From the NCBI GenBank assembly GCA_965285935.1, contig OZ260667.1, positions 31,992,001 through 32,056,000 of the forward strand: DNA of 64,000 nucleotides, in the 5' to 3' direction. The translations under genes were made by a program, and so were the position numbers. This stretch comes from Ophelia neglecta. Its lineage: Eukaryota. Of this stretch, positions 2,252 to 49,052 are shown piece after piece. The notes under the pieces were generated by a model, which saw nothing but the letters and a program-made list of their open reading frames with translations, was not told the DNA's origin and searched no databases. Position 1 is the stretch's first letter. Each line of letters begins with the position of its first letter.

Positions 2252-2810
2252 CCTGGTTGAGACAAGTCTTGACTTACAAGGATGTATTTGCTATAAATTT
2301 GAGAGCTGTGGTTGAGACAAATCTTGACTTATAAGGATGTATTTATTTTAACTTCACCAGCTGTGGTTGACACAAGTCTTGACTTAGTAGTATTTATTTT
2401 AACTTCACCAGCTGTGGTTGACACAAGTCTTGACTTACTAGTATTTATTTTAACTTCACCAGCTGTGGGTGACACAAGTCTTGACTTACTAGGATGTATT
2501 TTTACTTCACCAGCTGTGGTTGACACAAGTCTTGACTTACTAGTATTTATTTTAACTTCACCAGCTGTGGTTGACACAAGTCTTGACTTACTAGGATGTA
2601 TTTGTTTTAAATTTGAGAGCTGTGGTTGAGACAAGTCTTGACTTACTAAGATGTATTTGTTTTAAATTTGAGGGCTGTGGTTGAAGGAACTCTGGACTTA
2701 CTAGGATTGTTTGTTTTCACTATGAGGCCCTGGGTAAGATAAGTCTTCACTGACATGTACTAGGATGTATTAAACACAAGTCCTGACTTACTAGGATGGG
2801 TTTGTAGTAA
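2252..2810. repeat. Minisatellite, ~10 copies of a 51-55 bp unit
   Basis: Unit AGCTGTGGTTGACACAAGTCTTGACTTACTAG... recurs at 2359, 2410, 2461, 2512, 2563 (period 51) and 2618 (55), degenerating at both ends. Confidence 0.95.
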
Positions 2811-22283: not shown

Positions 22284-22339
<56 letters not shown>

Positions 22340-22376
22340 TGCTGAAAACATAATATCCGCATTTCGCGGATATAAT
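21174..22376 (-). mobile_element. Helentron-associated non-autonomous element (HINE/DINE-1-like) with internal tandem repeats and (GCC)n microsatellite
   Basis: Sub-terminal inverted repeats TATATCCGCGAA (21212-21223) / TTCGCGGATATA (22363-22374); adjacent short IR ATATCCGC (22353-22360); hairpin GCTGTCGG-GGGG-CCGACAGC (21186-21205); minus-strand 3' end ...CCTAGTT; (GGC)n at 22283-22338. Confidence 0.85.
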
Positions 22377-31597: not shown

Positions 31598-31958
31598 CTA
31601 CAAAAGTAAAGTCGGACAATCAGTCTGTTTCTAGAAGCAACCATTCATACTAACACTTGCGTTAATTTGAATATCCATTCAAGTTGGCTTGCTAACACTA
31701 GTTACTTTCCATCCTGTCTGTTTCCTACAGCCTGTTACTTTTCCTGAATCGCACTGTTGTATAGCTAGAGATAGGAACAATCTTGTACTATGTAACTAAT
31801 AAAAAAAATCATTTTCATATAAAACTACTGCCTTGAAAGTTGTACTTTGATTGGTTTAGGGTTATTTTAAGTATACATGGCACAGCAAATGCTACCCGTT
31901 TTATATTATGGGATCATAAATATTAATTTAGAAATGTGTTTTTAATTCAGATTATTAC

Positions 31959-32012
31959 CTGTATGGCCTGTATTCCGTTGGCCTGAGGCATAAGGGCTTG
32001 CTGGAGGTCGTT
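31959..32012 (-). CDS. CAP: CAP coding exon 4: NDLQQALMPQANGIQAIQ
   Basis: Acceptor ggtttatag, donor gtaata; phase 0 to 0; 54 nt; fills the expected helix between flanking exons. Confidence 0.9.
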
Positions 32013-32462
32013 CTATAAACCAGAAAATATAAATAACAAATGATTGATACTGAGATAAACAAAATGGTAAGTTAATACTAAATCACAACTCCCTCTTAAA
32101 TTTAATATCATTAACTATGCAGTAAATAAAAATCATATGGTTACATTGCAATTATTTAACAGTGGTACCAGCACTATCCATGACCAGAGTGAGGGAAATG
32201 CATGGCTCTCTCCTGGACCATGTCAAATGTACTTATTTCATCACAAGTGACTAGGTCAGATATCAACACTTGTTTAGCAGCAGGCTGGGTCATAAGTCAG
32301 TTAATCAAGGAGTGTTTTGCGTCAGAGGTTAAGATAAATCTAAATATAGTGTGCTAATGTTTAAGAGATTTAAGACCAGAAATTTGGGAATATATTAATC
32401 GGAGGAAAGTCTGGTATGCCGATTCAGTCTAAGTTAACCTTTTTCCATGTACATGTACATAC

Positions 32463-32540
32463 CTGAGCAGGTTGTTTACATTTTGAAGCTTTCACCAGGA
32501 ATTCTCTCTGGGAATCAAACCCAGATTTGACCATGGCCAC
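32463..32540 (-). CDS. CAP: CAP coding exon 3: VAMVKSGFDSQREFLVKASKCKQPAQ
   Basis: Acceptor ctttcccag, donor gtatgt; phase 0 to 0; 78 nt; CAP-like QR.FL..AS...QP. Confidence 0.93.
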
Positions 32541-32800
32541 CTGGGAAAGAACAGTACGAAATGGTAGGTAAAAATCAGCCAGGTGATATTAATAAGGTTG
32601 AATTAATCATCATCTAAAATGTCATTAGTATAAACATCATACATGTTATATCTTAACAAACCTAATTGAGATTCCTCATATTGCTAATAATTCTGCCAGG
32701 GAGGTCACACTAAATGTAAATTAGATAAAGTTTATGCCTCTTTTCTCTATCTATAAGTTCATTTAATAATAAATAAAGATAAATCAGTTGCTATGGTTAC

Positions 32801-32904
32801 CTGGGTCTGAACATCACCGCCTATCTGGTTGCTAAGGGAGACAAACTTGGTAAAAGGTCCATTTAAAATGTCGTCGTAGGCGACAACAAATTGAGCCAAC
32901 ACCT
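32801..32904 (-). CDS. CAP: CAP coding exon 2: (E)VLAQFVVAYDDILNGPFTKFVSLSNQIGGDVQTQ
   Basis: Acceptor gtttttcag, donor gtaacc; phase 1 to 0; 104 nt; CAP-like V.AYD..L.GP...S..IGGDV. Confidence 0.95.
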
Positions 32905-33561
32905 CTGAAAAACATTTTACAAAAAAAAATTAATACTGAAATGAACAACAATTTTTTAAGACTCCTTCCTTATTACAGTTGGAGGTGCATTGTTAGGTCA
33001 AGCAAAAACACCTATCTACACATACATGTACTCCAAGAGGGATTGCCACGTCTTTGAGATAGGGGCAAGCCTTGTCCAAACTAACAGTGAAAGTTGCCAA
33101 GACCACTGCTAATGAAAATTATTATTGGTTTTGCTTATTTAATATCGCAACATTTAGAGGTGGGCAGCAAATATCAACATTATTGTTATAAGTGCTGAAG
33201 CCACCGGTTATTAATTTTGGGAAAGGCTACCATTTTTGTCAGAATTTCTGCATAAGAAACACACCACAATAAATCAGTGGAGTACAGTTAAGTTTTATTT
33301 ATGTGCGGGTGGGCTGTATAAATGTCCAACCCCATACTCTACCTGAGGGTAGATATATACTCTAACTGAAAGGGACTGAGCTGTAGTCAATTCATCAGCT
33401 GAATCAAGCCTCATAAAAAACATGTACAGCTTGCTGTGGACTTGTAAAACACAAGACACATTACAAGAACAATTCAACAAACAACCTTCAACATCTTTCT
33501 GAGTGAGTTTTATTTTTCTATTAAAAACTAGGCATATCAATGGTATTTTCCTGCAATTTAC

Positions 33562-33970
33562 CTTCCTCTTGAGCTTCAGGCCTCATGGCGACGGCCTGAG
33601 GTGTCTTCGGTGCCTTAAACCTAATGACTTGAGTTTGTTTGATGTTGTTGAGATCCAGTTTTCCTGGCCTATGGATAAAGGTAGAGTGGGTAGTTATCTG
33701 ATGCGCAGGGTTTTTCCACTTTTTGCCTTCCCCATTGCCTTGTAGCCCAATCTTGTTAGACGAGGGCAGGATCTTGTTCATGGTCTGGGCAAGTGGAACT
33801 TGGCCAGTTTTTTCCACCACAACTACAGTGGTTGCAACGTCCTTGTCCGAGCTTTTGGACGTGTGCGGCTCGAGAGCAGACGCAGAGCTTTCATCACCTC
33901 GCTTGCAGTCCGACGCTTTAGTGGGTCGCCGAGAGATGGGCCTCAAAACAACATTGAAAGGGCCATACAT
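33562..33970 (-). CDS. CAP: Putative alternative first coding exon of CAP (136 codons, MYGPFNVVLRPISRRP...RPEAQEE); exon probably starts at 34043
   Basis: Acceptor tgtcttatttatccag before 34043; ATG at 33970 is the first ATG downstream, with an in-frame TAA 4 codons upstream; phase-1 donor GAA G|gtaaat matches the phase-1 acceptor at 32904; CpG retained in an otherwise depleted intron. Confidence 0.65.
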
Positions 33971-36900
33971 ATTGGGATGTTATCTGTGTAATACCACCTG
34001 ATGACTGCCTTAACGTGCAACACAACCCACAATCACCAGCCAACTGGATAAATAAGACACAAATCAAGACACAAATCAAATCCCAATCAAGAGGGCAGTT
34101 TACCACTGCTTCAGTAAATCTAAACCCACTCCCTGTCCACAAATCAGCTTCTTGTAAGTTTACAGTAAACAAGTTCGTAGAAATGTCAGCAGATTCTAAT
34201 CTCACACATCCAACAGGGTACCTGATCTAGTGTTTTATGGAAATTTTAATATAACCTTCTACACTAATGCTCCTTGAAGATTCCAGACACCTCACAGGTA
34301 GATGATATAATTATTAGGTTTCTTGAATCCGACAGAAAGCACAAGGTTAGACAAGTCTTATCAAAATTGTAAGAACACAGACATTCCGGTAGCCCTACAA
34401 GTAGTCGAAGAAGTATACAGAATATCTACATGGTCGTATGGACCAGCAATAAATGGTACTTGACTTCATAAATCACAACTAGTTTGATATATCACAAGAT
34501 GCACTTGAAGCAGCTGGTCTGCACGGTGGTGCTGATACAGTAATGTTTCGTTAATAAACTTGGCATCAAACCGATTCATACATAACCCAAGCCTCTGGGC
34601 TAAAACAAATCAAATCTACTTGGCGCATTATGCCCCTTGTATGATTAACATGTCTACCATATGATTAGAACTGTCCTCTAGGCAAAGAGAATAGTGGAAT
34701 GAGACAACAAGTCTACTTCGTAGTTGGAATTCATATACATGCCTACTCGTAAAAGCAGACTTTCTGGCCCAATTTGGCCAACATCTGTCACAATGGCAGG
34801 CTGATTCATTCAAACATTCATGACTGCTCAACTGTCACCATAGTTACATGCCTTCAGTGATATTCAGCTTGGACAACAAACAAACAATGACTTTATAAAG
34901 ACGTCACTGCCATCTTTTAATAAGTAAATTATATATATATATGTATATGGTATTTGCTCCTGTTCTGGAACATTTTCTGGCACACCTGGTAAGGTGGGGT
35001 GATAGGACAGGTTATACCCCTTGTATCTTTATTGGGTTCTCACTGAGAGGCCACCACATGTCCACTGAAAATGTTAAAGGAATGCCCGGGGCTTTACATG
35101 TCAAGAACAGGTAATATAAACATGTACATACAAATACAGGTGCAAAAACAACTTTCCAAAAAAAAACCTTGTCTAACAGTTACCTAGGCACAAAAAACTT
35201 ACAGAAAAAAAAGTTTACAGGGTCTCCTGAAACTGGAGGGCCTCATCTTTAGTTAAGATTTTTCTGAAATCACCCACAACTTTCATTAAGGACAAAGGTT
35301 ATTTTTAAATATTCGTTTAAAGCTAACTTTGAAGCTGGGCACAACACAACATCTCTACAAAAATTAGACTGAAGTTAACTGTTACAAAATTGTTGGCTGT
35401 TAATTAACATGTACCTTGAAAACTTTGAATGGGATGCCTAAGTATTATCATAGGTGCCACACCAGAACCGCACCCATCCTCCAACTATCATATTATGTAT
35501 TGGTTTGTTAATGGAAGGTGTCGGCAAATCCAAGTAAATAAATAAATATTAAATAGGAATTGGTCACCTCAGAGACTCGTGTTCCTCTACTTTAGACTCC
35601 TATACTCACTGTAATGTTTGTGTTTTTCAGAAGGTACCCCTTTAAAATCTCTACCCGAGCACCTTGCTGCACTGGGGTATGTAAATTAATAATCTTGTCT
35701 CAATTGAGTCATGCCACTTTCAGCAGTGTAAAAATTAGAGAAGAAAACCTGCGAGATAACCTTACAAATTTAGCACACTCTTAAGACTTTTCAATCCATT
35801 TGCACATTCTCATTGATTAACACAATAGGTTTTTGCATTATCCCCAAGCAAAATTTAACAGTTATGGAATTTAAACAAAAATAACCTGAGCCTTCACCTA
35901 ATTCCTACTTAAGGAAAAAAACCCAGAATGAGGGAAACCAGGAGCATGTAATCAGTTATAAAACAGGAGTGAATCTTAACTGATAAGTCACACCCTAAAT
36001 ATTGTATTCGAGTGGTAGTAGTCAACAATCAGGAAGTCACAACCTTTAGTGGCTATTTCACTGCGTGATTTAGAGGAATCCCCTACAGAAAAGCAGAAGT
36101 TAATGTAAATGATTAAGTTTGCCTTTTCTACTAGACAATAACGACCGCTTTTGGGAATTAGATCCCTGCAAGTGTAGTTTTGTTCAGTGCTATTTTGTTT
36201 CTAGGTTTATATTAAAGTAATAACGTTGTTCTCCATATTTTTTCATGTATACAAGACCTAAAGCTAGGTCAGCCTGCAGCGATAAGTCAGGGATTGGTTT
36301 TAAAGGGTTGGAGGAGAGGGGGGGGGGGATGTGTGTACACTCACAATGGGTTCAGGAGCTTAGTCACATGTTAACTCTATCTATATCATCGAGTCTCCCT
36401 CTCAATCAGCAGCACATATAGAGGGTAAACTGACCCCCAACACCCCCACCCCACCCACAGTATTCTTCACCCCCAAGTCTTCTCCTGATATTTCAATATA
36501 TCACTTCTTCATCGCCAGTCTATAATATAAGATCAAAATACCAGAAGGCTTTCATGGTATCTAGCGTAAAACAAAAAAGATATACGCTTTATTCTAAAAA
36601 AAAAGGTCTCTGAATGCCCTACTTTCACAGGATTTGATGGCCAACAATTTGTTACCTGATAATACCTAGACAGTTTGAATCTTATGGTAGATAGCAATAA
36701 ATCATCTTCTTACACTGATTATAAATTTTGCAATATACATTAAGTTGCATAAATATTTCTTTAACAGTCAACAATTTTTAAGCAGCAAGGCTATTATACA
36801 ACACTGCCAGACTAATACTTTATAATGTCTTCCTTCAGCTCAATTTTATAGACGAAAATAAACAGACATTGCTGCTCCACTAAAACATCATATTGGCTAG

Positions 36901-38945
36901 TAATTGCCGCATTGATCGGTGTATTGCATGCCAACACACAGTTATTGGAGATTATTCTAATATTCCCAAAGGATATGAATAGAGCTGCATGGATCTGGGC
37001 TGATCACCTGACCACCATTGACTACATCGGCCAGTGGACTATAGGGGCCTCAATTTCATCTTTCATATGGTAATCTCATCAATTTAGCCAGCAGAAGGCT
37101 ACTGAAAACTGTACTGAATAAAAGGATACTCCTATTGGCTAAACTTACAAAGTTCCGTATTGAACTTGCATTTTGACTACAGTTTGGCTAAATAACCATG
37201 TGCATGGCAGGGACAACCATCGACTATTCTGAGACCAATAATCAATTTCAAGTTACAAAATATTCATTTCTAGAGCCAGAATATACCTTTATCTGCCCTT
37301 GTAGGTGACTAAGAGAATTAGTAGTTAAAGGGGGAGGGGGGAGGGGGTAAGTGAACTGTACACACATATCTGAATCTGAGTGGGGAGGGGGGGGGGGGAA
37401 TCAACACACACTCCTGTACGGTCAGTGGTGGATATGTAATACATAAATATTATGTTCCCTGGGCACCTTTCAATCCACACGTATATGCTCCCTCTCCCAA
37501 GTGATAAGTCTATTATTTATCAATTGTCTTTTAACTACAAAGAGGATGAACAAAAAACAAAATGTAATGTAGACTTTTTTATATCAAATTATTTGCAAGC
37601 CACAATAGCCTAGTGACAACTCTTTCAGAGGTTTACACCATAAAACCTGGACAGCTTTTCAACACAGTTGTTCACACAACATGACATACTACAGAATCAG
37701 TTACAGAACAAGCTGCCAGCCTCATAAGGTATGAATTCATTAATCAATATAATTAAGATTCACAGTAAATACCACATCATGTTCCTCAACCAATTGCATG
37801 GTCACGGCCTGGACAGAAGCTTTCATCAGATAACACAATAACCACTGATTGAACAATACTCTCACACTATCTAGTAAGAGAATGTATGCCTGTTTGGCAA
37901 TCGTTCTATAATTTCTTACGTTCACACATTTTTTCAGCTAAATAAAAATGGGTCAGCCAGTTAAAAGGAAATCATACCCTTTCTTCTGTAATGGAAAAGG
38001 CCCAATTTATTTTGGGTCAGGTCATTCAGCAACATATTGGGGAGCTGGTAAACAAAGGTATCGAAAAATATACAGCTAAAGATGTAATATACATGTACAT
38101 GTTAATGTAGTTATCATATAAATGGTGTTTATTACTGTATTATCATGATTCTCAGTTTTGGAATACTTTTTTTTGTGTAAATGGAAATTTAGAAAGAATT
38201 ACATTTTATATATATATATATATATCAGTAACAATATTTTTTAATGTATAAATATTTCATTGAGGGCAGCAATATGAAAAAATCATGTCCTTATGACAGC
38301 ACTGCGGCACATGAATACACACAAGACAGCTCATTATTTATTAAGAAAAGTAACATTAATTTTAGTATAAGTTACAGTTACATCTCTGCAGGGTACCTCC
38401 CCGGCTGTCTGGTGACATTTTCTGATGTATTACTTTGATACATACATTATACATGTAAACACAATTTGTTTCACACAGACTTTGACAACACCAGGTTTTC
38501 CATAAAAACTCACAAGTGTGTTGAAATGTACAAGCAGTATTACTAGGGCTTTTTCTGTGTGACAAGAATAGAGCCATGTAGCTTTGTCTTTTCTAAAGGT
38601 TATAATTATATTCATTCACCCCATGTTTGAAACGGAGGGGGGGAGGGGTCAAAAGCAAATGAGGAACATAATTGAAGTTGGCAAATATTTACAATGTATT
38701 GTTCTGGAAGGATTTTATCTGATGGTAGGGGGCGGGGGGGGGGGGGAGAGGTTAAACCGAGGGGGTAGGGGTGGGGGGGGGAAACAAGAATTACATGTAT
38801 AAAAGTAAATACTGGAAAATATCCTAGCTTTATGAACTTTATCATCAGGGTAAGTTTAATTCTGAGAATAGGTACAGTTAGGGCAGAAACATTATATATG
38901 AAAAACGTTAGGATTACCATAGTCTCTCACTAGTATGTTAAGATC

Positions 38946-38948
38946 TAA

Positions 38949-38980
<32 letters not shown>

Positions 38981-39020
38981 GAATATATGTACATTTTAAA
39001 CCTGCTATATACATATATAT
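38946..39020. repeat. (TA)n microsatellite
   Basis: Interrupted ATATAT runs. Confidence 0.85.
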
Positions 39021-40389
39021 GATTGTATGTTAATCATTATACATGAAAGATCATCTTTCATTTTGTGTCAGAATTTATTTTAGGTCTAAATTGACACCAC
39101 ACACAAGGAAGTAATAGGGGATGTTTAATAAACACTTCTATTTATTCACTTCCTGACTGTGACTCTAATAGGACAGACTTCATGTTCATCACATCACAGA
39201 CTGTATGTCTGTTTGAATGTGGGTCTTGTAACCTGCCCATGGGTCAAACTATGGCTGACAAAATGGCAACATTATACATACTAATGCAGCTTCATATTGC
39301 TAATCATAAACAAACATCGTTATATTTATAGAATGGTTTCATCAACACTTGAAACACCAATTTAAGGTGTCATCTGACATGCATTTAAAAGATAATATCG
39401 ATAATTGACATGTTGTTTACATATCAGTAATTATACACAATGTTTGTATATTTTTAATTAATGTATTTGCTATATTATATGTATTAATGGTAAATACTAG
39501 TAATCCATGTCCATAATCCATTTGTGCATTCAATAGTTGTTACTTCCATTACAAATAAATGTTTTTTTAGATCAGAACACAACACATTAGCTGAAGTCAC
39601 TTTGAGTGTACCAGTGTGACAGGTACTTCTACCAGAAGCTGATCCTAATGGTTTATGAGGACACCTGACAAGAACTCTCTAGTGTCTGATTGCATTAACA
39701 ATGTCCCCTCTCTCTTAACAACATCCTTTTAACTTCCTTTTTTGCTTTTCTGGTTCACATGTGCATTGCATAGCATTTTATCATTAACAAAAAATATAAT
39801 AATTTAGATCAATATAAAACAACCACAATTTGTACTTCATATTAATTGCTATCTTAGATAACCTATCTTCAAAGTAAGTTTAAATGTTTTCTCAGGTACG
39901 AGTTCGTCCGCTTGACACTTAAGGGCCAAGTATTGAAAATTCAACAGTGATACAGCTGTTAAATATTCTTGACGAGTGGTTGTACATGCTGTAACTAAGT
40001 AATATTTAATACTGTAAAAACTATGATTTAATCAAAGCCAATACCAGCCCTCTTGAATCATAAATCTTAACAATTTATCAAATGCACATTAATCTGTTTA
40101 TGCAATCAAGTTTGTCAATAAGCCATCACATTTAGCCTAAAGAAACACTGACGAAGATTACATTTATTGTGATTTCATCAGATATTTGATTCTTTTCTCC
40201 AGAACAAAATCAGAGGCAAATCTGCCACCACCACACACCCCTGGTGATAATTTAACTTCAGGTTAGCCTTTCCCTCTCCCCTCCCATTCAAAAATGGAAT
40301 AGTCTTAAATAGAAACCCAAACCTTTTCTATTTTGTGTTATCATAATGTTGTTGCAAAGAAGAAGGACAATTTTATCAGTCCTACTTAC

Positions 40390-40498
40390 CGGGACTAGAG
40401 GCGGATCCCCCGCCACCACCACCGCCACCAGTGGCATTTTCCAGACGTGCTGTCACTGCCTCTAGACGGGCTACCAGTCCAGCGATCTCGGCGGCCAT
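40390..40498 (-). CDS. CAP: CAP coding exon 1, canonical start: MAAEIAGLVARLEAVTARLENATGGGGGGGGSASSP (RLE oligomerisation motif)
   Basis: LVARLE.VT.RLE motif typical of CAP N-termini; strong context AACATGG; donor CCC G|gtaagt, phase 1; 109 nt. Confidence 0.95.
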
Positions 40499-40747
40499 GT
40501 TCGGTTCAATATCTTCAGTCCGATGACTCTGTTCTAGCTTGACGTGTTCTGGATTTACAACGGTATTGTTGTTATAGGCAAACTGCGATTGGCTGAAACC
40601 TGGGTTAACGTTTGCGTTAAGATTTGCCTTCTTCTTTTTCCGCTCTTCCCAAATTAAGTTCTCCTGGCTTCTCGCCTTACGAACCTCTGGAGGCGAATGA
40701 TTTTTGAGACAACAATAAAAGATACTTCCTGTGTGTTTTTCGGACAT
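40499..40747 (-). CDS. CAP: In-frame 83-aa N-terminal extension of CAP from an upstream ATG (MSEKHTGSIFYCCLK...RKKKK...)
   Basis: Open frame continuous with MAAE; no convincing polypyrimidine acceptor between the two ATGs; nearest good acceptors at 40808, 40849 and 40912; CpG retained. Confidence 0.6.
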
Positions 40748-40757
40748 TCCGTTTATC

Positions 40758-40769
40758 TTATGTCCACAT
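40758..40769 (-). promoter_or_regulatory. Three-codon uORF (ATG TGG ACA TAA) ending 10 nt before the upstream CAP ATG
   Basis: Read directly; lies inside the exon whichever of the acceptors 40808/40849/40912 is used. Confidence 0.55.
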
Positions 40770-43700
40770 CCTCTGGTGGAGAGTGTACTTAACTCAGATG
40801 ATCTGTTCCTGCAAAAGGCTCTGGGTCCTTTCTGGTTTGATACGAGTACCTATATAAACAGGTCAATCAAAGTTCAATTTGGAAAATGTCACCATGCATG
40901 GTCTATTCTGAACTGTTGAAATTGGAAAATATCTACAGTAACTTTTAAATCTAAGATTTAGAATTTGAAGGAGTAGCATACAGTGTGTCACAAATAGGGG
41001 GCAGACAAACAACGGCTTACAGAACTCATGGACATAAATAGCTATAAGTGTGTGAGGAGTAAGGTAGGGAGGGTTGTCATACTCTCAGTTAGAATGTCAG
41101 GTCATTAACTTTGTAATTCAAGAAGGTTCTAGAATTAGGCATAAATCCTACCTTGGAATGCTACATCTACGGTGGATTATACATAACACCAGTTAAAATA
41201 GCCCCCATGGCACCTGGGAGGTGCAGATATGTTATCAGTTTGTCGGAATTAAAGATACCGGTACATGAAGTTAGAAATACACCTGTACAAACTAAGGCTC
41301 ATCATTGTATTTGAAAACACATTACACTAAAACATTGTCATTTCATTAGTAATTTATTCTAGACTTATTATAAGACTCAAGTCAAATAATGTTACTATTT
41401 TCGGACTAAAAGTTTTAATAAACTTCCAGCAGTTTCATGTCAATTAAGAAATGAGAGGTGTTTTACACTAAATCTGTCTTTATTGGTCTCACATCTGATA
41501 TCAAATTTGCCGATAGCCAATACTTGCTGTCATAAGTGTCATTGCTAAAAGTGAATTTCTAACCTCCTTCGAGTTCCGACAAGCCCGAAAAACAGTTACC
41601 TCATCACCTCTCAGTGCCATAGAGACTCTTTTAGTCCAGGACTTGTAGGTGTATACATGCTATCTCTAGATCATGCTCTAATACTGGTATCTGAATATTA
41701 TCATTTTCTAAATTATATAAAGTGCCAGCACTGAGCATTAAATTATTTCAATGTCAAACTGAAACAATCGGATAAATTATTGGAATAGCATAAAATTACA
41801 AAATTTTGGGAAAACAAAGTTAGGCTGGTATTAAGGAGTTTGCAAATTTAAATTTTCAATACAGATTCAATTTAATGCTTCAAAGTTTCATGTGGTACAA
41901 TATCTATAAAATGCCTGGGAGCATTAGCCCAGTGTGATTTAAAGTCAAACTTCTTCCTTTTTCAGTAAGCACAACACAACCGAATTTAAGCACATTCCTA
42001 CAGCATGAGCACCGGTAAGTTGTGAAGAGGGTGACCAATTGTTAAAACCTTTTAAGCACATTGTGAGTGGCATTATATGGTAGACAGCTAAAGATTTTGT
42101 AGTACTAAAATCTTTCTTTATTCAACTGACCAGAAAGCACCCAGTTAACCAAAAAACTAAAGCTATTACTCCTTTTTTTCCGAACTGGCCTATGATGTAT
42201 CTTGGGAACCTGTCAGGAAAATAAATAATTAAGAAGACAGTGATTAAAACAAACATAAAATAGAGGTAAACTGTGTCTGGCCCAAATACTCTCAGAGAGA
42301 GCTTATTGAAAATAGTTAACTTGAAAAATTGCATTGGAAATATACACCGTAAAGAAAGAGAAGTCACTAATACTGAAAACAAAAAATTCAGCAAGTACAG
42401 TAGTTCCAGCCTAATTTACCCATGAATGCGTATGCCAAGTTTTTTGGGGGGAGGGGGGGGGGGCTCTTTTATGCATCCCCTTTTTTTTACTTCATTTCAA
42501 GAGTTTTTATTTACTTAAAGTTACATAAGTTACAAATTATTTCTGGTCTTGTTTAATATATATCATACGCTGGAGGGGAAATATTAGGGTTGCAACTACT
42601 GTAAACTTTGTAATCCCTGATATTGCTGTATAACACCATATATATAAGACAGGATCAACAAGTTGACATGATGGGGAGTATGAAAGAGTTGTCTGTTACG
42701 GCTAGCTAGTTATGTCATAAAAATATGATTGCTTACCATATTTAACCATGTATAAAATATTATATCAGATAAGTGAATTATTATGTGAAAATGTCAAATA
42801 TAGATGGGACATTAATGAAACCCTGTCTCACTCCTCTGTCAATCATTGCTCACCCTGAATATCATGGTGACATACTTGAAAATTTAACCACATGCAATCT
42901 AATAGAATTCTATGCAAAATGCAATGTTAGTATTACTAAGAAATACTTTTGACTTTTTGTAAGTTCAATAGTTGTGAACTAGGTTTAGTAAAGATAGAAA
43001 GAGAGGTCCACAGCCATAGCTACAGCACCCAATGCACCTATGTTTGAAATAAAGAAATAAACATTATTAACTCAATCATTAAGTAATGTGAATCAATACA
43101 GACACTAATAGATAATACAAGTTTCTATTTAAAGAAAATAATCCATACATAGTTCTGCAACGTAAACATTAAGTACAAGATCAACATATATCAAAAGTAT
43201 CAAGTAATTATTCAATGAGGGACCAAAATCAATTAGAGAATGTCTACATTAAAAATAAAACCAATAAAACACTGTTTTGTTGCTGGAGTTCAATGCAATT
43301 GGGTAAAGCAATAAAACCCTGGTGGATGGTAAAACCCTATCACTAGTTTTAAGCATTAGGCTCTGAAATCAATATTTTAATTGTTTTGATTAAACAAATA
43401 ATGCAGCCCTTTACGAATTTATCTCAGGGTAATCTATACTCCAAACTCATGAGTAATTACTTTGGAATTTCTGCACATGTATTGCTGTCAGGAATTTCTC
43501 TGCTTTTAACTGATTAAAATATACTTTACTGAATTTTCAATACACTCTTTAAATGAGCTAATAATTTTCAGACTGGCCACTGTTATCCTAGGACAGTTAG
43601 GTGTCTGGAAGCAGTTATATTTTTGGCCTTAACGGGTTGGGAATTCAAGGGGGAAAATTCTTGGTCTACTTGAGTGTTTCTTTCTGCTAACTTTCAACTT

Positions 43701-44421
43701 GGATATTTCCATTTTACTCATACAGTGGTAACAATGATAAAATGTGATCTAAATAGGGTTTACATTCACTCTTTCAGATTCAGAAGTGTCCAAGTTTTTT
43801 CTGAGTTACAAATGCATCTCCATTAGAAATAGGTATCAAAGTCCGAACCTGGTCCATGTTTGGAGTTTTTCAACCCTCATTTAAAAGCATGAAGAAATTT
43901 TCTTTGGGGATTTAACACACCCACGGGAAGAAAAGTGTCAAACATACAAGGTGGATTGAACATTTGTGTATCAAATCAACTATATTAAGTTAATTGTTTT
44001 ATTTACAAATATTGAAATGAGAAACAAACTATAAGAACCATCTAGATTTTAAAAGAGATAAACGAATAAACATGATGCTACTGCTGTGTGTAATATTCAA
44101 GGCAAGATTTTAAAGCTTAATAACAACATTTTCAAACTAATTATGATAAAAACAATATATTTATAGATAGTGATAGCAATAGTGATGTTCTTGATTGTTT
44201 GACCATCGCCCAGCTGTTGGCCCTTACCCAAAAAAATATCTAAGACGTGTAAGGCTCTTTCGACAGTTGGCCCAAGCCGGCTTGTTGACAGTTCATTCTG
44301 TTCCGGTTGGGAAATAATAAGATTCTACGAGAACATTTCTCTGTAATACTCTTAACGGGGGCCATAAAATTAACTATCATGGGTGACTAGACGGTGTTTT
44401 ATGGTTTGTTATCCTTGATCA

Positions 44422-44431
44422 CCAAATATGG
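44422..44431. promoter_or_regulatory. Consensus CArG box (CCAAATATGG) in putative CAP intron 1
   Basis: Matches CC(A/T)6GG; ~230 bp from the putative exon-1 donor. Confidence 0.4.
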
Positions 44432-44662
44432 CTTTATTTACGGAGATACGCCTAGATAAATCAAGGAATTCAGCCGGTGATTCATGGGGGCGGCCATCTT
44501 GGAACTAAGTAGGAAGATGCCTGCAAATTTTCTAAGTTGATAGCTCTATTAGCAAGACTCGATTTGAGGTCATACTCAGGGGAACTAAGCCCACCCATAA
44601 GATTTCTAATACAAGTCAATTTTTAAGAGATTACATGAACGTTTACAAAGACATCATCGTAC

Positions 44663-44800
44663 CTTTTCTGCCGGAGGGAGTGTCAGCAATTCCGCTACAG
44701 GGGTCGCTGCAATAGGCGGAAGTCCTGTTCTTTACGTGCAGAGTGGAGTATGCATCGGCTACTGCCAGCTAACTCGCAATCCAGCACAGCAGTTCGCACG
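44663..44800 (-). other. CAP: Putative non-coding first exon of CAP (5' end approximate)
   Basis: Donor AAAG|gtacga at 44663/44662; GC/CpG-rich; lies at the boundary between CpG-depleted and CpG-normal DNA; its only ATG (44755) opens a 7-codon ORF. Confidence 0.6.
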
Positions 44801-45571
44801 GTAGTACTACTTCGCCTTCGTTAAATAGCAATGGCAGACATCATCATAAGTATATTTAGCGAAACCTGTAGATTGTGACCACACAAAGTCTGTTTTGACA
44901 GGTTGATTTTACTTTGTAAGGGACCATGGTTCCCATATAGAATATAGGCCTAGTATTCGCAATTGTCCCGATATTCTTCTGATATCGATTTTTTTTTGTT
45001 AAATATATTTCTTAAAATATATATATTAGCCAAATACATTTGCAATATAATAAACATGACCATTTTTTTTATAAAATTGTCAAACCTTGTCGAAAACACC
45101 AATTTTGCATGACATACTCCCAACTTTCATGCATTCTGAACCCATTACAACTTCGTTGATATTTACGATGGCGGCCATTTACAAGAGGGCCTCATTTGGC
45201 AAATCAAAAGAGGAATTTTACAGAACTTCATTTGTTTTGAGTACCACAAGTAACGAAAATGTTCTTGTTAATGTTAGTTTTAAAATTTGTTGAAAGTTAC
45301 TTTAGATTTTTGAACATACGAACCAGAGGTACAATGAAAAGTATCATGAAAAGTGTCGACTTCTATTTACAAATGCTTGGTGATTGGATACCCGGCAGCT
45401 AATCTCAATCAGTTTTCAAGAAAGTACCCATTAACTTGGCCCCAATACATCAGAACCACCAGTTCCCTGGCCAACATCGATTCCGATGTCAGTAAACTTA
45501 AAAGAGGATGGTAAACAAATAAAATATAAAATCTGTATAGCAACGAAAAATAATCAACAGTTTTCAAAATG

Positions 45572-45705
45572 TATGACGAGTCATATCACGGTAACGGACA
45601 GTAAACTATACGCTGAGCAATATCACATTAAACTGAGAGTAAACCCTACTTCGAGTCATATCATAGTACCTGACAGTAAACCCAGTGTTGAGTCATATCA
45701 CAATG
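45572..45705. repeat. Degenerate tandem repeat, ~4 x 37-38 bp
   Basis: GAGTCATATCA...GACAGTAAAC recurs at ~45577, 45614, 45652 and 45690. Confidence 0.7.
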
Positions 45706-46169
45706 ATATATCAACCAGGTCTTTGCGTGGACTCCAAGGACCTATTTAATCAACTTCAACATTCTGTGATCTTAATAAATTAACTTAATTTTTCCTCAAG
45801 TTAATTAAGTTAATAAATAGGTAAATAAATGGAATTTATAATATTATTATTCATCATGATTTCCATATTCTGCGTATTATGTGAGAACAAATTTGAATGT
45901 ACCACGGAAAAGTGCCAGTCCTTTTGGAATAAAATAAGAAAGAAATAATCACACATATGGATAAGTCAAGGACATGTCTTGATATTGGTATACTCTTTGA
46001 AATTCGATATAAATGTGTGTTTCTTGTGTAACTTGAAATGGCTGCCAGCATGACAATACAAAGATTCATTGGATTTTGAAAATATGCATGCAAAAAAGTC
46101 TTTTTCCTAAATAGTTGGTGCTTTTATGCACGAAAAAAACTAAAAATGGGATATATTTCTCTATTTCAG

Positions 46170-48497: not shown

Positions 48498-49052
48498 TGA
48501 AACTCATTCTGAAGGAAGCGAGCTCTGAAAGCGGCCTCTTCTAAAAAAAAACAGGCTCTGAAGGAAGCTCCCACTGAAAGAAACTCACCCGGAAGGAAGC
48601 TCCATCTAAAGGAAACACGCTCTCAAGGAAGCTGCCTCTTAAGGAAGCATACTCTCCAGGAAACTTACTCTGAAAGATCCACGATTTTAAAGAAATTTAC
48701 TCTGAAGGCAGCTCCCTCGGAAGGAAGCTCACTCTGAAAAAAATCTCATTCTGAAGAAAGCATACTATAAAGGAAGCTCACCCTGAAGGAAGCATACTCT
48801 GCAGGAAGCTTAATCATATGGAAGCTCACCCTGAAAGAAACATGAAGGAAACTCAATCCGAAGGAAGCATGTTGTCAATGAGCTCAGTCTGGAGTATACA
48901 TGATCTCAAGAAAGTTTACACTGAAGGTCATTTCCTCTCAAGAAAGCAGCATCTGAAGGAACATGCTCTGGAGGAAGCCCCTTCAGAAGAAATGGTTTCT
49001 GGACAAAGCTCGCACTGAAGAAAGCTCACTTTGAAGGAAGCTCAATTTGAAA
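48498..49052. repeat. Degenerate minisatellite, ~16-bp unit CTCACTCTGAAGGAAG
   Basis: Some 30 diverged copies of (A)CTCTGAAGGAAGC. Confidence 0.9.

What the first reader, a model, noticed from the sequence alone, without database searches (positions are those of the whole stretch)
33562..34043. Hidden alternative exon that would swap CAP's RLE oligomerisation motif for a novel 136-aa N-terminus
Seen: strong acceptor at 34043, first ATG at 33970 (A at -3), 136 open codons, and a phase-1 donor ~650 nt upstream of the phase-1 acceptor of exon 2, giving ...AQEE-E-VLAQFVV in frame. An in-frame stop before the ATG means it is a first coding exon, alternative to the RLE exon. Known: the N-terminal RLE coiled coil drives CAP oligomerisation, which promotes cofilin-dependent actin disassembly. 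Inference: this isoform would lack that motif and carry a basic, probably disordered leader (FNVVLRPISRRP, KLDLNNIK), so it could have a different activity or tissue distribution.
Basis: partly seen in the sequence, partly recalled or inferred. Interest (0 to 1): 0.7.

Follow-up and report, generated by a model that had tools for sequence, protein, structure and literature searches.

The report
Conserved alternative start exon of CAP
Inside the single gene for the actin regulator CAP lies a hidden protein-coding exon, conserved in at least one other organism, that likely replaces the protein's self-assembly tip with a floppy 136-residue leader and would give one gene two differently assembled forms of CAP.

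Summary
Observation confirmed. Acceptor at 34043 (top 0.7% of AGs), ATG at 33970 behind in-frame stops, 136 codons, and a phase-1 donor at 33562 matching exon 2; joined in silico it gives an intact 580-aa CAP versus 480 aa for the RLE form. It is single-copy, has no Pfam match and is exon-like in GC. New evidence: one homologue elsewhere (P0002, E 2.4e-19) starts at the same Met and keeps two blocks (19/24 and 24/32 identical) across a saturated, indel-bearing linker, which is protein-level conservation. Use as a cassette after the RLE exon fails (stop after 39 codons). Not shown: any RNA junction, and whether P0002 lies in a CAP gene. New rival: an AATAAA 7 nt after the unspliced stop, followed by the most UG-rich downstream stretch of 229 such sites, could instead or also give a free 149-aa protein by intronic polyadenylation. 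An RLE-less CAP would likely remain a CARP dimer, so depolymerising activity would be reduced, not lost. An RBM24/38-type gene sits directly upstream. Verdict: real, a new variant of a known kind, moderate interest.

The parts
33971..34043 (-). 5' untranslated part of the alternative exon, behind the acceptor at 34043
   Evidence: two in-frame stops, no ATG; acceptor top 0.67%
33562..33970 (-). coding part of the alternative exon: 136 codons + 1 nt, phase-1 donor at 33562
   Evidence: homologue P0002
33899..33970 (-). conserved block 1 (codons 1-24), 19 of 24 identical to P0002, same start Met
33599..33694 (-). conserved block 2 (codons 93-124), 24 of 32 identical to P0002
33521..33561 (-). 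read-through tail if the donor is skipped: 13 more codons and a stop (149-aa product)
33509..33514 (-). AATAAA 7 nt after the unspliced stop; candidate intronic poly(A) signal
33450..33494 (-). UG-rich element; intronic splicing enhancer or poly(A) downstream element (inferred)
   Evidence: 1 of 7 such places in 203,325 windows; top of 229 AATAAA sites; top of 9 CAP donors
32801..32904 (-). CAP exon 2 (start of the helical folded domain), phase-1 acceptor shared by both first exons
40390..40498 (-). canonical first coding exon with the RLE coiled-coil motif, phase-1 donor
   Evidence: (PF01213, 1.9e-6)
44663..44800 (-). candidate upstream non-coding exon ending at the 44663 donor (5' limit not defined, link untested)
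   Evidence: donor top 6%; CpG-rich

Best explanation
The stretch is a conserved protein-coding exon in the first intron of this animal's only CAP gene, and it is likely spliced to exon 2 as an alternative first coding exon, which would give a 580-residue CAP lacking the RLE coiled coil. Shown: splice sites and phases, an intact joined frame, single copy, and two blocks conserved at protein level. Inferred: the isoform would stay a dimer through its C-terminal CARP domain instead of forming tetramers or hexamers, so pointed-end depolymerisation would be weaker per molecule while monomer recharging is kept; the two conserved blocks in the disordered leader likely act as short docking motifs that target this form to a particular structure; the UG-rich element after the donor likely helps a tissue-specific RNA-binding protein select the exon. 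Muscle is a guess.
For: Homologue P0002 among 1.84 billion representatives, E 2.4e-19: same first Met, blocks 19/24 and 24/32 identical, linker 15/68 with indels yet no stop; block substitutions are conservative. P0002 has Gly-Asn at the matching place, compatible with the same G|GTAA phase-1 donor (inference). Best donor of 20 in the ORF is phase 1 and fits exon 2; joined frame intact to the CAP end, 580 aa vs 480 aa. GC 50.6%; synonymous codon score in the top 1% of intron pieces and best in the used frame. One copy; one CAP_C locus in the genome. AlphaFold2: no fold, pLDDT highest at the two blocks. Oligomer state sets activity: PMC6876575 and PMC6888645 (passages).
Against: No junction was observed. 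Only 1 homologue was found and its genomic context is unknown. Searches for longer proteins carrying the leader found none (weak tests by the tool's own note). The codon score, though above introns, is negative against the coding training set (-19 bits). The donor is weaker than 11 of 12 constitutive donors. An AATAAA plus UG-rich stretch directly after the unspliced stop fits a terminal exon. The single allelic difference seen in the exon changes an amino acid (codon 49, in the linker).
Confidence: 0.72

Rival explanations
1. Terminal exon only: the donor is ignored, the transcript is cleaved after the AATAAA at 33514, and the product is a free 149-aa disordered protein made from the CAP locus.
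For: AATAAA 7 nt after the stop; the 45 nt downstream hold 20 TG/GT dinucleotides, the highest of 229 AATAAA sites (next 15). P0002 also ends 13-14 residues after the matching Gly and shares Gly-x-[Leu/Ile]-Gln-x-Asn there (seen post hoc).
Against: BLASTP does not extend into the tail. A top-3% donor of the right phase near the ORF end would be a coincidence. AATAAA occurs 1.3 times per kb. The 8 AATAAA sites found after 4 distinct actin stops score only 3-13 (weak control, true sites unknown), so the UG block looks more like a splicing element.
Confidence: 0.15
2. Not protein-coding in practice: a conserved non-coding element (for example an enhancer of the neighbouring RBM24-type gene) or a decaying exon whose translation merely looks conserved.
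For: An RRM gene lies directly upstream and the CAP gene has a 72-kb intron, an arrangement where enhancers sit in a neighbour's introns (own knowledge). Only one homologue.
Against: Conservation starts exactly at the Met, substitutions are conservative, and the frame stays open across a saturated linker of different length in both species. No Rfam match.
Confidence: 0.07
3. Cassette with re-initiation: the RLE exon is spliced to 34043, its frame stops after 39 codons, and ribosomes restart at ATG 33970. Same protein as the best reading, different route; otherwise a decay-triggering poison exon.
For: The RLE exon has no good acceptor upstream (four candidates rank 8-28%) and a TATA-like word at 40856, so it may be a first exon and is the nearest sure donor for 34043.
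Against: Re-initiation after 39 codons is usually inefficient (own knowledge); a candidate non-coding donor exists at 44663; a pure poison exon would not conserve protein blocks.
Confidence: 0.06

Closest known systems
CAP/Srv2 family (human CAP1/CAP2, Drosophila capulet, yeast Srv2)
   Same: Host gene has the full order: RLE motif (PF01213), helical folded domain (PF21938), P1, WH2, P2, CARP (PF08603); domain scheme from PMC7543520 section 5 part 1.
   Different: A second first coding exon would replace the oligomerisation domain with an unrelated 136-aa leader; no such isoform appeared in the search listings.
Toxoplasma gondii longCAP and shortCAP (PMC6785269, passages)
   Same: One CAP gene, two N-termini; the extra N-terminus sets localisation.
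   Different: Made by alternative start codons, 36-aa palmitoylated extension on a CARP-type CAP; here an alternative exon swaps, not extends, the N-terminus of a full-length CAP.
Engineered coiled-coil-deleted or dimerised CAP fragments (PMC6876575, PMC6888645; passages)
   Same: Define what loss of the oligomerisation domain does: monomeric HFD needs over 20-fold more protein, a dimer recovers much activity.
   Different: Laboratory constructs of the N-terminal half; this would be a natural full-length form.
C. elegans cas-1 isoforms CAS-1A/CAS-1B (recalled; the paper was not held)
   Same: Recalled as a muscle CAP gene with a short and a much longer N-terminal isoform.
   Different: Not checked here; whether the long form keeps the RLE motif is unknown to me, and no sequence similarity was tested.
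C. elegans unc-60A/B switch by SUP-12 and ASD-2 (PMC3469465, abstract)
   Same: Tissue-specific isoform switch in an actin-turnover gene through a UG-rich intronic element; SUP-12 is recalled as the RBM24/38 orthologue.
   Different: That gene is cofilin and swaps all downstream exons; here only the first coding exon, and regulation is untested.

Membership tests
CAP/Srv2 (host gene) | HFD, P1-WH2-P2 and CARP in one intact frame | tested here: met
   12 shared exons with AG/GT ends, frame open to the end
CAP/Srv2 (isoform from this exon) | N-terminal RLE coiled-coil oligomerisation domain | tested here: not met
   no PF01213 or other Pfam match for P0001 or P0002; no RLE; no helix of 4 or more residues in the model
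Alternative first coding exon | own start codon closed upstream by in-frame stops; donor phase fits the next exon | tested here: met
Alternative first coding exon | protein-level conservation | tested here: met
   1 homologue, E 2.4e-19; its linkage to CAP unknown
Alternative first coding exon | junction to exon 2 seen in RNA | not testable with these tools
   the three runs available behave as genomic DNA
Composite (intronic poly(A)) terminal exon | poly(A) hexamer and U/GU-rich downstream element after a skipped donor | tested here: inconclusive
   both present but cleavage not observable; UG block may be a splicing element
Transposon fragment | multiple genomic copies or a mobile-element domain | tested here: not met
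   1 match by DNA and by protein; no Pfam; these searches give lower bounds
WH2-like actin-binding motif | amphipathic helix followed by an LKKT-like motif that binds actin | tested here: inconclusive
   block 1 has a Leu-Arg-Pro-Ile word (resemblance recalled) but no preceding helix in the model and no Pfam or PDB match

The most novel reading that the evidence does not exclude
The exon is a dual-output switch: spliced, it yields a dimeric, RLE-less CAP with two new docking motifs; read through and polyadenylated, it yields the same motifs as a free 149-aa protein; and the choice is made in muscle by the RBM24-type protein encoded next door through the UG-rich element. One invertebrate CAP gene would then do by RNA processing what vertebrates and nematodes do with two CAP genes.
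Probability: 0.12. Interest if true: 0.72.

Novelty: new variant of a known kind. Interest (0 to 1): 0.46.

Why it matters
CAP activity scales with oligomer state in vitro (PMC6888645, PMC6876575), yet natural control of that state is little described; a conserved exon swap that removes the oligomerisation domain would be a natural experiment and a way for single-CAP invertebrates to make a tissue-specific form. The two conserved blocks are unannotated short motifs whose partner can be sought directly. It remains an isoform of a well-known gene, in a lineage of unknown breadth (2 sequences), without expression data.

Tried and rejected
Expression: no RNA holder listed; the 3 runs laid cover introns evenly with no splice joints and are one sample, so they say nothing on splicing. 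Complex prediction of the leader with this genome's actin plus ATP: no verdict, score 0.05 against a mark of 0.34, alignment not used; not evidence either way. Protein Atlas look-alikes could not be obtained. Longer proteins with the leader: 0 of 101 and 0 of 2180 candidates scored. Exon-2 query for relatives' N-termini: 0 of 4 candidates, so the clade and relatives' isoforms stay unknown. Metagenome scans: 0 of 37 pattern matches confirmed and 0 matches to a block-2 pattern. PDB: 0. Rfam 32000-46000: 0. P0002's cluster has 1 unnamed member on 1 contig of 44 kb. In-frame cassette after the RLE exon: rejected. Splicing-motif counts (TGCATG, ACTAAY, TGTG) near the exons were post hoc and weak (TGTG at the acceptor top 2.5%); not used. 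The donor matrix had one site off by a base and is replaced. The (CCG)n run at 22345 is not the P1 exon (P1 is in L007). Earlier-finding look-ups gave nothing on this locus; two notes on other genomes do not bear on it. Papers read as passages without relevant content: PMC4663486, PMC2963174, PMC13733786.

Full report
Observation. The minus strand shows an AG acceptor before 34043, a 73-nt leader with two in-frame stops and no ATG, ATG 33970 with A at -3, and 409 nt to a G|GT donor at 33562. Exon 2 begins at 32904 in phase 1, 657 nt further on. The canonical first coding exon (40498-40390) carries the RLE motif (PF01213) and is also phase 1. Scored with matrices from the gene's own 12 donors and 12 acceptors, the acceptor is in the top 0.67% of 7473 AGs and the donor in the top 3.3% of 7481 GTs, best of 20 GTs in the ORF, though weaker than 11 of the 12 training donors. 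Only 2 stop-free runs this long occur in 75,382 background bases. GC is 50.6% against 36-38% in the flanks, and synonymous codon use lies in the top 1% of intron pieces although still negative against the actin-dominated coding set.

The host gene. CAP_C matches one locus in the genome, about 52 kb left of the window. Twelve shared exons were placed, with a 72,090-nt intron between the HFD and P1 exons; the frame is intact to the end from either first exon, 480 aa with RLE and 580 aa with the new leader. Splicing the RLE exon into 34043 stops after 39 codons, so the exon is not an in-frame cassette.

Is it coding? It is single-copy by DNA and protein search (lower bounds) with no Pfam, PDB or Rfam match. 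A search of 1.84 billion representatives returned exactly 1 hit, P0002, 163 aa, E 2.4e-19, an unnamed singleton on a 44-kb contig. It starts at the same Met; identity is 19/24 in codons 1-24, 15/68 in the linker, 24/32 in codons 93-124 and 2/12 after. The linker differs in length but stays open, and block substitutions are conservative. This is the pattern of a disordered protein with two short motifs, and AlphaFold2 on the two-sequence alignment gives no fold, with pLDDT highest at the blocks. P0002 has Gly-Asn where the window has the Gly-Lys that spans the donor, compatible with a like donor and read-through into an intron; this is inference, since its DNA and neighbours could not be seen. 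No longer protein carrying the leader was found, a weak negative. One allelic change in the exon is non-synonymous, in the linker.

If the donor is skipped the frame stops at 33521 (149 aa). An AATAAA follows 7 nt later, and the 45 nt downstream hold 20 TG/GT dinucleotides: highest of 229 AATAAA sites, one of 7 such places in 203,325 windows, and the strongest after any of 9 CAP donors tested (21 vs at most 13). It reads either as a poly(A) downstream element or as an intronic splicing enhancer. AATAAA sites after actin stops score 3-13 and BLASTP does not extend into the tail, which leans to the splicing reading; a four-residue resemblance in the tails leans slightly the other way.

Mechanism. 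Shown: sites, phases, frame, conservation. Inferred: the leader form lacks the roughly 40-residue oligomerisation domain (PMC7543520, section 5 part 1) but keeps the CARP dimer. Monomeric HFD needs over 20-fold more protein for pointed-end depolymerisation while a dimerised HFD recovers much of it (PMC6876575, passages), and activity rises from monomer to tetramer (PMC6888645, passages). The expected outcome is a dimer with lower disassembly potency, intact recharging, and new targeting through the two blocks. The partner is unknown. An RRM gene of the RBM24/38 type (name recalled from its sequence features; RRM_1 6e-17) lies directly upstream on the same strand; in C. elegans SUP-12 switches cofilin isoforms in muscle through a UGUGUG stretch (PMC3469465, abstract). 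A link to this exon is speculation. How the 5' end is built is open: the 44663 donor is modest (top 6%), and the RLE exon lacks a good acceptor and has a TATA-like word upstream.

Comparison. N-terminal CAP isoforms are known in Toxoplasma by alternative start codons (PMC6785269, passages) and are recalled for C. elegans cas-1, whose paper was not held. Six full-text searches (listings only) showed no exon swap that removes the RLE domain; subscription papers, database annotations and supplements were not seen, so prior annotation in related genomes is not excluded.

Verdict. A real, conserved coding exon; most likely an alternative first coding exon of CAP (0.72); stand-alone product only 0.15; non-coding or relic 0.07; cassette with re-initiation 0.06. 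New variant of a known kind; interest 0.46.

Noticed in passing
L026:3307-3561, L025:5021-5233, L012:7897-8259 (all - strand; 8-44 kb right of the window): An RBM24/38-type RRM gene lies directly upstream of CAP on the same strand. Human RBM24 and CAP2 are recalled as tandem neighbours, which would make this an ancient gene pair; one paper search for it found nothing.
   Followed up: partly
window 25551 down to L007:3462: A 72,090-nt intron splits the CAP gene between the helical domain and the P1 exon, while most other introns are under 4 kb; no convincing long exon was seen inside.
   Followed up: partly
window 40499-40849 (-): The RLE exon is preceded in frame by 117 open codons with an ATG at 40747 and a Cys-Cys pair near that start (P about 7e-4 by composition), a possible longer, lipid-anchored N-terminus as in Toxoplasma; codon use is not coding-like (25th percentile of introns).
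   Followed up: partly
window 22285-22340: A pure (CCG)n run reading as poly-Pro, poly-Ala or poly-Arg sits in the large intron; it lacks a donor and the true P1 exon is elsewhere.
   Followed up: yes
window 2303-2661, 48513-49018; L007:7505-8764; L008:219-578; L012:734-1404: Several minisatellite arrays give long repetitive open frames.
   Followed up: no
window 31712-31809, 43504-43595, 45673-45861: Allelic deletions of 96, 90 and 187 nt in intron or upstream DNA seen in the DNA contigs.
   Followed up: no
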